Of a stretch of 64,000 nt of DNA, positions 32,555-45,362 are shown in pieces. The position numbers and the translations under genes are program-made. The stretch lies in NCBI RefSeq assembly GCF_009914755.1, contig NC_060925.1. One strand, 5' to 3'. Numbering within the stretch: the stretch's first letter is position 1; every line of letters starts with the position of its first letter. This DNA is from the human T2T-CHM13v2.0 reference genome, Homo sapiens. Under the pieces are notes generated by a model. The model was given only the letters and a program-made list of their open reading frames with translations. It was not told the origin of the DNA and made no database searches.

Positions 32555-33325
32555 ATCTTTAAATCTACATATAATACTGATCATTTCTCCCATTTTATAG
32601 GTGAGAAAAGTGAAGTGTAGAGAAATCACATAGGAAATGTACAGTAAAAGACATTACACACACTCAGGTCCTAAAATTGATCACTCAGTGTTTTTAAAAC
32701 ATTAATCACTAGAATTCTATAGTGCATTTTAACATTTGAAACAGCTAATATTCTTTCTTTCTCAGAACTTTTCTTTTTTTTCTTTGAGACAGAGCCTCGC
32801 TCTGTCGCCCAGGCTGGAGTGCAGTGGCGTATCTCAGCTCACTGCAAGCTCCGCCTCCCGGGTCCACGCCATTCTCCTGCCTCAGCCTCCCGAGTAGCTG
32901 GGACTACGCCAGGCTAATTTTTTGTATTTTTTTTAGTAGAGACGGAGTTTCACTATGTTAGCCAGGATGGTCTCGATCTCTTGACCTCGTGATCCACCCA
33001 CCTCAGCCTCCCAAAGTGCTGGGATTACAGGCGTGAGCCACCACACCCGGCCTCTTTCTCAGAACTTTTAGGGATCATTTGGCAGGACTTCAGTGTTATT
33101 TTTTAAAGTTCCTCTCCTCAAGCTGCATCTTCTCCATTAAAAAAAAAAAAGCCATTAAAGTTGGAATATTGAAATATAAAGCTGTGGGTGATTAAATCAA
33201 ATGGTAACTAGTGGTGGGGGGCAGGCAGATATGTGGAGCAGACTATAGTTCAGAAATAGATGCAAACATATGATACTTTCATTATACAATAAAAAATGCA
33301 TCTCTTGCTGGGTGCAGTGGCTCAC
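32555..33325 (+). repeat. Inverted duplication arm A (parental copy, intron 12)
   Basis: Reverse complement of 44593-45362 with about 8-9 differences by manual comparison. Confidence 0.95.
32770..33052 (-). mobile_element. AluY-like element with a 16-nt right-arm deletion (inside arm A); TSD ~CTTTCTCAGAACTTTT
   Basis: AluY diagnostics (gagatcgagaccatcctggctaac, gaatggcgtg, ggagcttgc). Confidence 0.92.
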
Positions 33326-35439
33326 ACCTGAAATCCCAGCACTTTGGGAGGCCGAGGCAGGTGGATCACCTGAGGTCAGGAGTTCAAGACCAGCCTAGCC
33401 AACATGGTAAAACCCTGTCTCTACTAAAACCACAAAAATTAGCCGGGCATGGTGGCACACGGCTGCAATCCCAGCTACTCAGGTGATAAAGGCAGGAGAA
33501 TCACTTGCACCCGGAAGGCAGAGGTTGCAGTGAGCTGAGCCAGTGCCCTCCAGCCTGGGTTACAGAGCAAGACTCTGTCTCATCAACAACAACAACAACA
33601 ACAACAAAAAGCATCTCTAAATCATTCGTAAAAAGATATATATTTATTAAATAAATATGTGAGTCCAGTCATCTGATTTAAAAAAAAAAACTTACTTAAA
33701 TAAAAAAGAAGCAACAAATATAATCCTGAAGGGAGAGGGAGAATTTTTTAAAAAGATTTTTTTTTTGCTGGGCGCGGTGGCTCACTCCTGTAATCCCAGC
33801 ACTTTGGGAGGCTGAGGCGGGCGGATCACAAGGTCAGGAGATCAAGACCATCCTGGCTAACATGGTAAAACCCCGTCTCTACTAAAAATACAAAAAATTA
33901 GCCCGGCTTGGTGGCCAACGCCTGTAGTCCCAGCTACTCAGGAGGCTGAGGCAGGAGAATGGTGTGAACCCGGGAGGCAGAGCTTGCAGTGAGCTGAGAT
34001 CGCGCCACTGCACTCCAGCCTGGGTGACACAGTGAGACTCCATCTCAATAAATAAATAAATAAATAAGATTTTTTTTTTTTAAGACAGGATCTTACTCTG
34101 TCGCCTAGGCCAGAGTACAGTGGCACGGTCTTGGCTCACTGCAGCCTCAGCTTCCTAGGCTGAAGCAATCCTCCTGCTTCAGTCTCCCAAGGAGCTGGGA
34201 TTACAGGTGCGCAACACTATGGCCAGTTATTTCTTTTTTATTTTTTGTAGAGATGGAGTCTCACTATGTTGCCCTGGCTGGTCTCATATTCCTGGGCTCA
34301 AGTGATCCAACCACCTTGGCCTCCCAAAATGCTGGGATTACAGGCATGAGCCAGTGGGCCCAGCCAAGAATAAATTTTTTATAATCTTGAAAGGAAGAAG
34401 GCTTTTCTAAACATAAAACCCAGAAAGAGAATGACTCATACTTTTTTTTTTTTTCTTTTTGAGACAGAGTCTAGCTCTGTCGCCCAGGCTGGAGTGCAGT
34501 GGTGTGATCTTGGCTCACTGCAATTTCCGCCTCTGAGGTTCAAGCGATTCTCATGCCTCAGCCTCCTAAGTAGCGGGATTACAGGCGCCCACTACCACGC
34601 CCAGGTAATTTTTGTATTTTTAGTAGAGACGGGATTTCACCATGTTGGCCAGGCTGGTCTCAAACTCCTGACCTCAGGTGATCCAGCCACCTAGGTCTCC
34701 CAAAGTGCTGGGACTACAGGTGTGAGCCACCGCACCTGGTCTACATGATTTAACTGTATCTAAACTGGAATATTCTGTACAAAACAAATGGTTAAAATGC
34801 AAAACACTTAAGACTAACTGTAAGAAATACCACACGCATATGCATATACATATACATATATATATATATGAATGATAAAGGACCAATTTCCTTCATATAC
34901 AATGAGCTCTTATAAATAATAATCAATTACATATGTTAATATAATGTAAATTAAAACAACTTCTAGGCCAGGCATGGTGGCTCACACCTGTAATCCTAGC
35001 ACTCTGGGAGGCCGAGGCAGGTGGATCACCTGAGGTCAGGAGTTCGAGATCAGCCTGGCCAACATGGTGAAACCCCTGTCTCTACTAAAAATACAAAAAT
35101 TAACCAGGTGTGGTGGTGGGTGCCTATAATCCCAGCTACTTGGGAAGCTGAGGCAGGAGAATTGCTTCAACCCCGGGGGGCAGGTAGAGGTTGCAGTGAG
35201 CCCAGATCATGCCATTTCACTCTAGCCTGGGTGAAAGAGTAAAACTCTGCCTAAAAAAAAAAAAAAAAAAAAAAAAAACCATCTTCTAAGACTGGTAATA
35301 ATTTAAGTTTGCCTAATGTTGGACATGTAGATGTGGAAAAATGGTTTGGGGATACTAAATTGGTATAATCTGGCATCATTCATCTCATCTAGAAAAATAA
35401 ATAAATAAATAGATATAGCCTTTCCAGCAGCCATTTTCA

Positions 35440-36140
35440 CTCATTCAAGTAACAAACTATGTATTAAGCAACGATTACACATCAAGTACTATCCAAGGTG
35501 CTAAGAAAACAGTGATGAATGTGAGCTCCTTCCCTGGAGCTTTCTATCACAAATAGAACAAAAAAACGTGATTAAGGGCCTGAATGATGAGAAGGAAATA
35601 GCCATTAGAAGGGTCCAAGGAGGAATATTTCAGGCAAAGGGAACCAAAAGCTGAAGAACCTAAAGTATAAACATGTTTTGGCATTTTTAAAGTACAAAAA
35701 GTTAAAGAAAAAAGCACTACAGCTGAAGTGTAGTGAACACAGAAGACAGTGATAAGAGATGAGTTTGCAGAGAAAGACAAGCCAAGTCATAAAGGGCTTT
35801 AAGGGCCAAGGTAAAGCATTTGGATTTTATTCTAATTGCAATGGAAATCCACTGGAGGATTTTAAGCAAGAGTGCTACAATCTGACCTGGGCTTTAAAGA
35901 TGGTGTGGGGAAAACAAACAAACAACGACGGTATGGTGTTTCCAAGTATAGGAAACATGAGGGGATAGTACTGGATGGAAGTGGTATGTAAGGGTGTCAT
36001 CAGTGGTTTGAATTAGGTTGGTAGCAGGAAAGATAGTAAAGAGTAGTTAAGTTCAGTATATATCTACAAAGCAGAGCCTGGGTTTGTGACTCCTGAGAAT
36101 TTTGCCTGAGTGACGAGATGAGAGGTGATACCATTAACTA
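35440..36140. mobile_element. L2 LINE fragment
   Basis: ggccaaggtaaagcatttggattttattctaattgcaatggaaatccactggaggattttaagca: typical L2 motif. Confidence 0.7.
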
Positions 36141-36242
36141 AGATAATAATAGTGAAATAATAGTAATAGTTAACATATACTGAGCACTAACTATATGTCA
36201 GCAATATTCTACACCTTTATCTAGTAACTCATTCAGATCCTT

Positions 36243-43344: not shown

Positions 43345-43890
43345 AAGACTGACTTCCTGGAGGGAAAAGGAATTCTGCCAGCAGGCTGCCTTTGGACTCA
43401 AATTGCAATTCTTCCCTGGGTGTCCAGCCTACCAGCCTACCTGTAGACATTTTTTGTCTTTTTTTTTTTTTTTTTCTTTGAGACAGGGTCTCATTTTATC
43501 ACCCAGGCTGCAGTGCAGTGCCACGAACATGGCTCACTGAAGCCTTGACCTCCTGGGCAAGTGATCCTCCCACCTCAGCCCTGCAAGTAGCTGGGACTAT
43601 AGGCATGTGCCACCACAACCAGCTAAATTCTGTACTTCTTTTCTGTTTTTGTAGAGGCAGGGTTTCGCCACATTGCCCAGGCTGGTCTCGAACTCCTGAG
43701 CTCAAGCAATCCTCCCGCCTCAGCCTTCCAAAGTACTGGAATTAAAGGGATGAGCCACTGTGCTCAGCCTCTACCTGTAGACTTTGGATTTGCCAAACCT
43801 TCACAAACACAGAAGCCAATTCCTTAAAACAAATATCTCTACATACACACATCTTGTTGTTTCTGTTAATCTGGAGAACCCTAATACAAG
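43345..43890. mobile_element. MLT2 (ERVL) LTR fragment interrupted by an Alu
   Basis: ggaattctgccagcag..tgcctttggactc...cttccctgggt.tccagcct...gccaattccttaaaa...ctggagaaccctaatac; TSD CTACCTGTAGAC. Confidence 0.75.
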
Positions 43891-44592
43891 ATAATATCTT
43901 TTTTATTTTTTTTGAGATGGAGTCTCACTGTATCACCCAGGATGGAGTGTAGTGGCATGATCTCGGCTCACTACAACCTGTGCCTCTTGGGTTCAAGTGA
44001 TTCTCTTGCTTCAGCCTCCTGAGTAGCTGGGATTACAGGCATGCACCACCAGGCCCGGCTAATTCTTGTATTTTTAGTAAAGACGGGGTTTCACCACGTT
44101 GGCCAGGCTGGTCTCCAAGTCCCGAGACTCAGGTGATCTGCCTGCTTCTGCCTCCCAAAGTGCTGGGATTACAGGCGTGAGCCACCGGGCCTGGCCGAGA
44201 ATATCTTCTTTACCACAAAAGGTAGAATATGCTGACCCAAGAAGTCACAAGACTTTATTTAATTAATATTCTTCAAGTGTGTTTTAGAAGTTTTAAAACA
44301 ATTTTTTTTTTTTAGGTAGGAGTTTGTTTTGAGACAGGGTCTTACTCTGTTGCCCAGGCTGAAGTGCAGTGGCGCAATCTCAGCTCACTGCAACCTCTGC
44401 CTCCCGGGTTCAAGCGATTCTCCCACTTCAGCGTACCGAGTAGCTGGGATTACAGGCACGCTCCAGTGCGTCCGGCTAATTTTTGTATTTTTAGTTGAGA
44501 CGGGGTTTCACCATGTTGGCCAGGCTGGTCTCAAACTCCTGACCTCAACTGATCCGCCCGCCTCAGCCTCCCAAAGTGCTAGGATTACAGGC

Positions 44593-45362
44593 GTGAGCCA
44601 CTGCACCCAGCAAGAGATGCATTTTTTATTGTATAATGAAAGTATCATATGTTTGCATCTATTTCTGAACTATAGTCTGCTCCACATATCTGCCTGCCCC
44701 CCACCACTAGTTACCGTTTGATTTAATCACCCACAGCTTTATATTTCAATATTCCAACTTCAATGGCTTTTTTTTTTAAATGGAGAAGATGCAGCTTGAG
44801 GAGAGGAACTTTAAAAAATAACACTGAAGACCTGCCAAATGATCCCTAAAAGTTCTGAGAAAGAGGCCGGGTGTGGTGGCTCACGCCTGTAATCCCAGCA
44901 CTTTGGGAGGCTGAGGTGGGTGGATCACGAGGTCAAGAGATCGAGACCATCCTGGCTAACATAGTGAAACTCCGTCTCTACTAAAAAAAATACAAAAAAT
45001 TAGCCTGGCGTAGTCCCAGCTACTCGGGAGGCTGAGGCAGGAGAATGGCGTGGACCCGGGAGGCGGAGCTTGCAGTGAGCTGAGATACGCCACTGCACTC
45101 CAGCCTGGGCGACAGAGCGAGGCTCTGTCTCAAAGAAAAAAAAGAAAAGTTCTGAGAAAGAAAGAATATTAGCTGTTTCAAATGTTAAAATGCACTATAG
45201 AATTCTAGTGATTAATGTTTTAAAAACACTGGGTGATCAATTTCAGGACCTGAGTGTGTGTAATGTCTTTTACTGTACATTTCCTATGTGATTTCTCTAC
45301 ACTTCACTTTTCTCACCTATAAAATGGGAGAAATGACCAGTATTATATGTAGATTTAAGGAT
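44593..45362 (-). repeat. Inverted duplication arm B (derived copy, intron 10)
   Basis: Reverse complement of 32555-33325; both ends abut Alu sequence. Confidence 0.95.
44865..45148 (+). mobile_element. AluY-like element (duplicated copy inside arm B)
   Basis: Appears identical to 32770-33052, including its TSDs. Confidence 0.92.

What the first reader, a model, noticed from the sequence alone, without database searches (positions are those of the whole stretch)
32555..45362. A ~770-bp, ~99%-identical inverted duplication brackets only STIL exons 11+12: candidate circRNA / exon-skipping switch
Seen: 32555-33325 (intron 12) and 44593-45362 (intron 10) are reverse complements with only about 8-9 differences. 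About 480 bp of this is non-Alu sequence, so it is far longer and more identical than ordinary Alu pairs. The only exons between the arms are 11 (115 nt) and 12 (969 nt). Established: complementary flanking introns drive back-splicing. I recall a catalogued STIL circRNA (hsa_circ_0000069) with this exon content; this needs verifying. Inference: the arms form a long dsRNA stem that yields a 1084-nt circle. The linear by-product (exon 10 to 13) frameshifts (AG|A TTC AGC GTT TGT TGG AAG CAC AGT CTC TGA) into a premature stop, i.e. an NMD target. A recent duplication could therefore have created a lineage-specific dosage valve on a gene whose level sets centriole number.
Basis: partly seen in the sequence, partly recalled or inferred. 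Interest (0 to 1): 0.9.

Follow-up and report, generated by a model that had tools for sequence, protein, structure and literature searches.

The report
Inverted intron duplication flanking known STIL circRNA
A real, nearly perfect 770-base inverted duplication sits in the two introns around STIL exons 11 and 12, the exons of an already catalogued circular RNA, and probably helps make that circle, but nothing shows that it works as a dosage switch.

Summary
Arm A (32555-33325, intron 12) and arm B (44593-45362, intron 10) are reverse complements, differing by 8 substitutions and 1 poly-A indel. The ~473 nt of non-Alu sequence has only these two copies in the whole T2T genome. No other repeat in the window exceeds Alu size or 87% identity. 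Only exons 11 and 12 lie between the arms.

The circle is already known. hsa_circ_0000069 (circSTIL) has the same 2219-nt span, and its published junction primers and siRNAs match exon 12 end | exon 11 start exactly. The 10-to-13 frameshift and early stop are also correct.

New here:
- Target-site duplications show arm A is the original. Arm B is a templated inverted insertion between two Alus.
- Divergence of 0.93% dates it to roughly 2-19 My, less if gene conversion acts.

The arms are the strongest predicted pairing. However, they lie 3.7 and 5.4 kb from the splice sites, 37 ordinary inverted Alu pairs also span the exons, and the linear mRNA exceeds the circle. The "dosage valve" and lineage specificity remain untested, because no primate genomes were on hand.

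The parts
32555..33325 (.). Arm A, the original copy, in STIL intron 12. It lies 5353 nt downstream (in the transcript) of the exon 12 donor.
   Evidence: It is the original because Alu_z at its right edge carries its target-site duplication AAAA(T)GCATCTCT on both sides at this locus.
32770..33052 (-). Alu embedded in arm A (sense in the STIL pre-mRNA), with a 17-nt target-site duplication TCTTTCTCAGAACTTTT. It holds all 13 CpGs of the arm core and has no arm-to-arm difference.
33308..33600 (+). Alu_z, which abuts arm A. Its first ~18 nt form the homology at one duplication junction. It extends the imperfect stem by pairing with Alu_y.
   Evidence: The extended duplex has 1005 pairs.
38679..39647 (-). 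STIL exon 12 (969 nt). Its GT donor is the back-splice donor.
40783..40897 (-). STIL exon 11 (115 nt). Its AG acceptor is the back-splice acceptor.
44310..44610 (-). Alu_y, a full-length Alu abutting arm B. It is 88.7% identical to Alu_z, so it is not part of the copy. Its 3' flank lacks the GCATCTCT duplication.
44593..45362 (.). Arm B, the derived inverted copy, in STIL intron 10. It lies 3695 nt upstream (in the transcript) of the exon 11 acceptor.
44865..45147 (+). Copy of the embedded Alu in arm B (antisense in the pre-mRNA).
45361..45448 (-). Alu_x, an Alu cut off at ...GGCCAACAT (about Alu position 93-98), where arm B begins. This is the second duplication junction.
45989..46098 (-). 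STIL exon 10, which would be joined to exon 13 in the skipped linear product.
30515..30680 (-). STIL exon 13. In the 10-13 product it is read out of frame, with the TGA ending at exon nt 31.

Best explanation
A 770-nt piece of STIL intron 12 was copied in inverted orientation into intron 10. The piece is unique sequence that already carried one Alu and ended at the 5' edge of a second Alu. The copying looks like a replication or repair template switch. One junction lies in a truncated Alu with about 2 nt of microhomology. The other uses the first ~18 nt shared by two Alus.

In the pre-mRNA the two copies can form a ~770-bp, nearly perfect duplex, about 1000 bp if the adjoining Alus are counted. 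This duplex loops out exactly exons 11 and 12. It brings the exon 12 donor near the exon 11 acceptor and so favours back-splicing into the known 1084-nt circle hsa_circ_0000069 (circSTIL). Whatever is left joins exon 10 to exon 13 and should be an NMD substrate.

Shown: the duplication, its direction, its uniqueness, the identity of the circle, the frameshift, and the relative pairing strength. Inferred: that this stem, rather than the many Alu pairs, is what drives the circle, and that it changes STIL output. The effect on STIL dosage is probably small.
For: - Duplication and its limits.
- Only two copies in the genome.
- Direction A to B: Alu_z has matching target-site duplications at A. At B the segment sits between a truncated Alu_x and a complete Alu_y. 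Alu_y differs from Alu_z at 13 of 115 aligned columns, and its 3' flank lacks the duplication.
- Circle identity: a table in review PMC8303601 gives hsa_circ_0000069/circSTIL as chr1:47745912-47748131, a 2219-nt span equal to 38679..40897. The forward primer and 2 siRNAs of PMC5158168 Table 1 map across exon 12 end | exon 11 start and are absent from the linear window. The reverse primers of PMC5158168 and PMC7732169 map antisense in exons 11 and 12.
- Passages of PMC7672590 report RNase R resistance and Sanger confirmation of the junctions of its 8 circRNAs, including circSTIL.
- Splice sites are AG and GT.
- Duplex energy of the arms is -1487.0 kcal/mol with 765 of 770 nt paired. The best cross-intron Alu pair outside the arms reaches -475.2, and 10 shuffles average -264.9.
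- That intronic complementary sequences promote back-splicing is established knowledge. It is recalled here and restated in passages of PMC13019027.
Against: - The arms are far from the back-splice sites (3695 and 5353 nt).
- 37 inverted Alu pairs also bridge introns 10 and 12. One Alu lies about 500 nt from the exon 12 donor (37965-38173) and one about 1460 nt from the exon 11 acceptor (42357-42626).
- There are 20 + 15 within-intron inverted Alu pairs that compete. Each arm holds its own local hairpin partner about 260 nt away, at about -431 kcal/mol.
- duplexfold energies ignore kinetics, proteins (ADAR1 and DHX9, recalled) and co-transcriptional splicing.
- No deletion, editing or duplex-mapping data were found.
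- Linear STIL RNA exceeds the circle in prostate tissue.
- PMC7732169 reports that knocking down the circle lowers STIL protein, the opposite sign to a valve.
Confidence: 0.6

Rival explanations
1. Neutral bystander. The duplication is a real but inconsequential repair accident. The circle is made because of ordinary inverted Alu pairs close to the splice sites and the unusually long exon 12. It would be made equally well without arm B.
For: 37 cross-intron inverted Alu pairs exist, several much closer to the back-splice sites than the arms. The arms lie 3.7 and 5.4 kb away. Each arm can be captured by a local Alu hairpin. That long exons favour circularisation is recalled, not tested here.
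Against: The arm duplex is about three times stronger than any Alu pair, and its 473 nt of unique sequence has no competitor anywhere in the genome. It brackets exactly the exons of the catalogued circle named circSTIL.
Confidence: 0.3
2. Adaptive dosage valve. The duplication diverts a meaningful share of STIL transcripts into the circle plus an NMD-degraded 10-13 mRNA. This lowers STIL protein and centriole number in a lineage-specific way.
For: The frameshift and early stop of the 10-13 product are real. circSTIL goes down while linear STIL goes up in prostate tumours, so circle and linear levels can move apart. The divergence suggests a young event.
Against: The linear RNA is significantly more abundant than the circle although circles are stable, which implies a low production share. 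A knockdown study reports that the circle supports STIL protein. There is no evidence of the 10-13 isoform, of selection, or of lineage specificity.
Confidence: 0.05
3. The main consequence lies elsewhere. The long, nearly perfect intronic dsRNA may be chiefly an ADAR/dsRNA-sensor substrate. At the DNA level, the 770-bp inverted repeats may be a substrate for recombination that inverts exons 11-12, giving a loss-of-function allele of a microcephaly gene.
For: Passages of PMC7006430 state that only 197 human intragenic inverted duplicates exceed 300 bp and 96% identity, that they are depleted even from pre-mRNAs, and that the expressed ones are often heavily edited. This pair exceeds both cut-offs.
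Against: STIL and the expected coordinates were not found in the 3 supplement files held for that paper. No editing or inversion data were seen. This reading does not exclude the circle-promoting role.
Confidence: 0.1
4. Assembly artefact or mis-join.
For: None found.
Against: The two copies have different flanks and 8 private substitutions plus an indel. They lie in a gapless telomere-to-telomere assembly, with intact exons in the correct order between them.
Confidence: 0.01

Closest known systems
Exonic circRNAs made by pairing of intronic complementary sequences (reverse-complementary matches, mostly inverted Alus)
   Same: Inverted complementary sequences lie in the two introns flanking the circularised exons. 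The back-splice sites are canonical. The circle is detected and validated in RNA.
   Different: The pairing element is not an Alu pair but a locus-specific 770-nt duplication at 99% identity. About 61% of it is unique sequence. It is roughly three times longer than an Alu and far more identical than the 77-87% of the Alu pairs in this window. It also lies unusually far (3.7 and 5.4 kb) from the splice sites.
hsa_circ_0000069 / circSTIL (circBase entry, much studied as a cancer marker)
   Same: It is the same molecule: same span and the same back-splice junction.
   Different: None of the papers seen discusses how it is made. The 25 papers that hold both the circRNA name and 'flanking introns' appeared from the 15 listed titles to be general reviews and were not opened. 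A search for STIL + dsRNA + inverted + ADAR1 found 0 papers.
Loop-out exon skipping by inverted Alu pairs (PMC13019027)
   Same: A stem across two introns loops out internal exons and can yield a skipped linear mRNA.
   Different: STIL is not mentioned in that paper's main text. Here the skipped product is only predicted, not observed.
Long nearly perfect intragenic inverted duplicates (PMC7006430: over 300 bp and over 96% identity; 197 in human RefSeq pre-mRNAs)
   Same: The pair meets both cut-offs and is intronic.
   Different: Whether it is among the 197 could not be seen in the supplement files held. Its position around a known circRNA is not part of that paper's theme.
Alu/Alu-mediated and microhomology-mediated templated insertions (FoSTeS/MMBIR; names recalled)
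   Same: Both junctions lie in or at Alus. One has about 2 nt of microhomology. The copy is inverted and only 11 kb from its template.
   Different: The event is fixed in this assembly and apparently old (0.93% divergence), not a disease allele. The ancestral state of locus B is unknown.

Membership tests
Intron-pairing-driven exonic circRNA | Reverse-complementary sequences in the introns on both sides of the circularised exons | tested here: met
   Arms lie in intron 12 and intron 10, with 765 of 770 nt paired
Intron-pairing-driven exonic circRNA | Canonical AG acceptor and GT donor at the back-splice sites | tested here: met
   Exon 11 acceptor is AG and exon 12 donor is GT
Intron-pairing-driven exonic circRNA | Back-splice junction observed in RNA and resistant to RNase R | tested here: met
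   From the literature only: junction primers and siRNAs map to the predicted junction; RNase R and Sanger validation are reported in passages of PMC7672590
Intron-pairing-driven exonic circRNA | Removing or mutating the complementary sequence lowers the circle | not testable with these tools
   Needs a minigene or CRISPR deletion
Inverted-repeat Alu pair (IRAlus) | Both arms are Alu elements in opposite orientation | tested here: not met
   Each arm holds one Alu (283 nt), but 473 of ~770 nt are unique sequence with only 2 genomic copies
Segmental duplication (usual catalogue definition, recalled: at least 1 kb and at least 90% identity) | Length of at least 1 kb | tested here: not met
   The high-identity core is ~770 nt. 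Beyond it the sequence is two different Alus at 88.7%
Templated insertion by template switching (MMBIR/FoSTeS or Alu/Alu-mediated) | Junctions with microhomology or homeologous repeats; copy near its template | tested here: met
   Alu_x is cut at CAACAT with about 2 nt (AT) shared with the A flank. The other junction falls within the first ~18 nt common to Alu_z and Alu_y. The template is 11.3 kb away
Templated insertion by template switching (MMBIR/FoSTeS or Alu/Alu-mediated) | Empty ancestral site at the acceptor locus | not testable with these tools
   No primate or other mammalian genome is on hand
Exon skipping coupled to NMD | Frameshift with a stop more than 50-55 nt upstream of a later exon junction | tested here: met
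   1084 nt is 1 mod 3. The TGA ends 135 nt before the exon 13/14 junction, with 4 junctions downstream
Exon skipping coupled to NMD | The skipped isoform exists and rises when NMD is blocked | not tested
   No RNA data on hand. The annotation table lists no exon that bears on it.
Long nearly perfect intragenic dsRNA (PMC7006430) | Inverted duplicate over 300 bp and over 96% identity within one pre-mRNA | tested here: met
   About 770 nt at ~99% within the STIL pre-mRNA. The cut-offs come from passages.

The most novel reading that the evidence does not exclude
Arm B arose on the human or African-ape lineage. By adding a virus-like, ~770-bp perfect stem around exons 11-12, it raised circSTIL output and lowered productive STIL mRNA in a primary-microcephaly gene that limits centriole duplication. 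That would be a datable, single-event change in circRNA and host-gene balance, testable by comparing apes with and without the copy. The stretch of 401 nt without any difference, which covers all 13 CpGs, would then reflect gene conversion that keeps the stem perfect.
Probability: 0.07. Interest if true: 0.75.

Novelty: new member of a known kind. Interest (0 to 1): 0.4.

Why it matters
circSTIL is widely used as a cancer marker (140 papers in the library hold its circBase name), yet no paper I found says why these two exons circularise. A locus-specific, nearly perfect 770-nt inverted duplication is a cleaner handle than the usual tangle of Alu pairs. One CRISPR deletion of arm B, or one comparison with apes lacking it, would measure how much a single long stem, kilobases from the splice sites, contributes to back-splicing and to host-gene output. 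It is also one of a rare class of long perfect intragenic dsRNAs (197 in human genes, PMC7006430). At the DNA level it is a possible substrate for inversions that would disrupt a microcephaly gene. The mechanism itself is textbook, so the value is as a well-defined test case, not as a new principle.

Tried and rejected
- Cross-species comparison was not possible. The genome tools hold only the window's own assembly plus prokaryotes and viruses, so lineage specificity and the empty site at B remain open.
- Primate and mammalian circRNA papers gave nothing. PMC8516421 has no STIL in the main text or in the 7 supplement files held. PMC8516420 has none in the 11 small supplement files held. PMC13019027 has none in the main text. 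Larger supplements not held may list it.
- PMC7006430 shows neither STIL nor the expected hg19/hg38 coordinates in the 3 supplement files held. One search was a badly formed term and was corrected.
- The papers on hsa_circ_0000069 (PMC7732169, PMC5158168, PMC11238365) give no exon content or coordinates in their text. I therefore established identity from the review table and by mapping the primers.
- A literature search for STIL + dsRNA + inverted + ADAR1 found 0 papers.
- I rejected the idea that Alu_y's 5' part was copied from Alu_z, which would place the junction deep inside the Alu. They differ at 13 of 115 columns.
- I rejected an assembly artefact (see rivals).
- duplexfold energies are inflated in absolute terms, since shuffled arms still give about -265 kcal/mol. 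I used them only as a ranking.

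
Full report
**1. The observation**

The repeat finder reports two inverted pairs in 30000-48000:
- 32555-33149 with 44768-45362 (595 nt, 99%)
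- 33141-33480 with 44438-44777 (340 nt, 91%)

These are one duplication, split by a single-base indel in a poly-A run. A pairwise alignment shows differences only at 32558, 32580, 32673, 32685, 33087, 33140, 33157 and 33202, plus an indel at 33139. That is 8 substitutions and 1 indel in about 770 nt.

Beyond 33325 both sides continue into Alus, but these are different Alus, with 13 differences in 115 aligned columns. Beyond 32555 the flanks are unrelated.

An Alu occupies 32770-33052, flanked by a 17-nt target-site duplication TCTTTCTCAGAACTTTT. The remaining 215 + 258 nt are not repeats:
- In the whole 3.1-Gb assembly the right part has exactly two matches, the two arms.
- The first 214 nt of the left part match only the two arms. 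The other 42 matches cover only the Alu portion.

In the full 64-kb window, 11 inverted pairs of 280 nt or more are found. The 9 that are not this duplication are Alu-sized and 77-87% complementary.

**2. Gene context**

On the minus strand the annotated exons have AG acceptors and GT donors; exon 8 has a GC donor.
- Exon 12 is 38679-39647 (969 nt) and exon 11 is 40783-40897 (115 nt).
- Arm A lies in intron 12, 5353 nt from the exon 12 donor.
- Arm B lies in intron 10, 3695 nt from the exon 11 acceptor.
- 11267 nt separate the arms, and no other annotated exon lies between them.

Joining exon 10 to exon 13 removes 1084 nt, which is 1 mod 3. The result reads ...AG|A TTC AGC GTT TGT TGG AAG CAC AGT CTC TGA. 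The stop ends 135 nt before the exon 13/14 junction and four junctions follow. By the usual 50-55-nt rule (recalled), this is a predicted NMD substrate.

**3. The circle is already known**

- 140 papers in the library hold the name hsa_circ_0000069.
- A table in the review PMC8303601 equates it with circSTIL and hsa_circ_001061 and gives chr1:47745912-47748131. That is a span of 2219 nt, identical to 38679..40897.
- The three primary papers I opened give no exon content, so I mapped their oligonucleotides (printed).
- The forward primer and two siRNAs of PMC5158168 start at circle nt 1070-1077 and run across exon 12 end | exon 11 start (ACAGCTAAGACTACTTCAGGCACAG|GTCTTCCC...). They do not occur in the linear window.
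- The two reverse primers lie antisense in exon 11 and at the start of exon 12.

The catalogued circle is therefore exactly the exon 11+12, 1084-nt circle.

Passages of PMC7672590 add three points:
- They report RNase R resistance, poor oligo(dT) priming and Sanger-confirmed junctions for its eight circRNAs, including circSTIL.
- Linear transcripts were significantly more abundant than circles for all but one gene. STIL was not the exception.
- In tumours circSTIL fell while linear STIL rose.

**4. Origin of the duplication (new here)**

At locus A, the Alu that abuts the arm (Alu_z, 33308-33600) is preceded by AAAAAATGCATCTCTT. After its tail it is followed by AAAAAGCATCTCTA, which is its own target-site duplication. 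The right end of the 770-nt segment is therefore in its ancestral context at A.

At locus B, read on the gene strand, the structure is as follows:
- Alu_x is cut off at ...GGCCAACAT, about Alu position 93-98.
- The 770 nt follow.
- Then comes a complete Alu_y, whose 3' flank (TTGTTTTAAAACTTC...) lacks GCATCTCT.

Alu_y is not a copy of Alu_z; they are 88.7% identical. High identity ends within the first ~18 nt that all three Alus share. The other junction shares about 2 nt (AT) between Alu_x and the A flank.

The simplest reading is a templated, inverted insertion. A broken or stalled 3' end in Alu_x switched to the template 11 kb away. It copied up to the edge of Alu_z and returned through Alu_z/Alu_y homology, replacing whatever lay between Alu_x position ~93 and Alu_y. 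This is an inference. The empty site could not be checked because no primate genome is on hand.

**5. Age**

There are seven substitutions in the 751-nt core, or 0.93%. With recalled rates of 0.5-1.0e-9 per site per year this means about 4.7-9.3 My, with Poisson limits of 1.9-19 My.

One caution applies. All 13 CpGs of the core lie in the embedded Alu, yet none of the 7 differences falls there, and the longest clean run is 401 nt. The probability is about 0.04 if sites are equal and about 0.005 if CpGs mutate ten times faster. Gene conversion between the arms would explain this and would make the event older than it looks. "Recent" and "lineage-specific" are thus plausible but unproven.

**6. 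Can the arms do what is claimed?**

| Pairing | duplexfold energy (kcal/mol) | Paired nt |
|---|---|---|
| Arm A with arm B | -1487.0 | 765 of 770 |
| Arms plus the adjoining Alus | -1923.8 | 1005 |
| Best cross-intron Alu pair outside the arms | -475.2 | 258 |
| Shuffled arm A against arm B (mean of 10) | -264.9 | not recorded |

The absolute values are inflated, so only the ranking counts.

Points against a dominant role of the arms:
- A probe-based map finds 9 Alu segments in intron 12 and 8 in intron 10.
- These give 37 cross-intron inverted pairs. One Alu lies about 500 nt from the exon 12 donor and one about 1460 nt from the exon 11 acceptor.
- There are 20 + 15 within-intron pairs that compete.
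- Each arm also holds a local partner: the embedded Alu and the abutting Alu are inverted and about 260 nt apart, at about -431 kcal/mol. This hairpin would form first during transcription.

Point for the arms: the 473 nt of unique sequence has no competitor anywhere.

I put the chance that the arms measurably raise the circle at about 0.6.

**7. The "dosage valve"**

- The frameshift is real, but the valve needs a large flux into back-splicing.
- The stable circle is less abundant than the linear mRNA, which argues for a small flux.
- PMC7732169 reports that knockdown of the circle lowers STIL protein through miR-144 (passages). If true, that is the opposite sign.
- No data on the 10-13 isoform, on editing or on duplex mapping were found (one search returned 0 papers).

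**8. Relation to known things**

The mechanism is the textbook intron-pairing route to exonic circRNAs, together with the related loop-out exon skipping (PMC13019027).

What is unusual is the pairing element, a locus-specific duplication rather than an Alu pair. It falls in the rare class of long, nearly perfect intragenic inverted duplicates. Passages of PMC7006430 count 197 of these in human RefSeq pre-mRNAs (over 300 bp and over 96% identity). The paper finds them depleted and, when expressed, often heavily edited. Whether STIL is among the 197 could not be seen.

No paper found describes this duplication. One search found 25 papers holding both the circRNA name and 'flanking introns'; judging from the 15 listed titles they are general reviews, and I did not open them.

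**9. Verdict**

The direction, mechanism and approximate age of the duplication are new but modest. A causal role in circle formation is likely but unproven. The valve idea is weak. Overall this is a well-defined test case of a known mechanism.

Noticed in passing
window 32770-33052 versus the rest of 32559-33309: None of the 7 arm-to-arm substitutions falls in the embedded Alu, although it holds all 13 CpGs of the core. The longest clean run is 401 nt (P about 0.04 uniform, about 0.005 with CpG weighting). This may reflect gene conversion between the arms, or the Alu reaching one arm later and being copied across.
   Followed up: partly
window 32783-33589 and 44310-45134: Each arm carries its own inverted Alu pair about 260 nt apart (the embedded Alu plus the abutting Alu), with a predicted duplex of about -431 kcal/mol. 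This local hairpin could form before the distant arm is transcribed.
   Followed up: partly
circle of exons 11+12 (40897..40783 joined to 39647..38679, minus strand): An ATG at circle nt 29, in the native STIL frame, opens a 365-codon ORF. It runs through both exons and crosses the back-splice junction before stopping 13 codons later. There is no evidence of translation.
   Followed up: no
window 51898-51984 (exon 8): The intron after exon 8 starts with GC instead of GT, making it a GC-AG intron.
   Followed up: no
window 45361-45615: Next to arm B, two partial Alu left arms (about positions 11-98) lie in opposite orientation, 82 nt apart (45361-45448 minus, 45531-45615 plus). They form a small extra hairpin, or may be a trace of a more complex rearrangement.
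   Followed up: no
window 33326-44592: Inverted repeats of 770 bp and 99% identity, 11.3 kb apart, could support recombination that inverts exons 11-12 and destroys the gene. No population or patient data were checked.
   Followed up: no
window 32530-32545: A short (CA)n run lies directly upstream of the left breakpoint of arm A. It may have been a fragile or stalling site at the time of the template switch.
   Followed up: no
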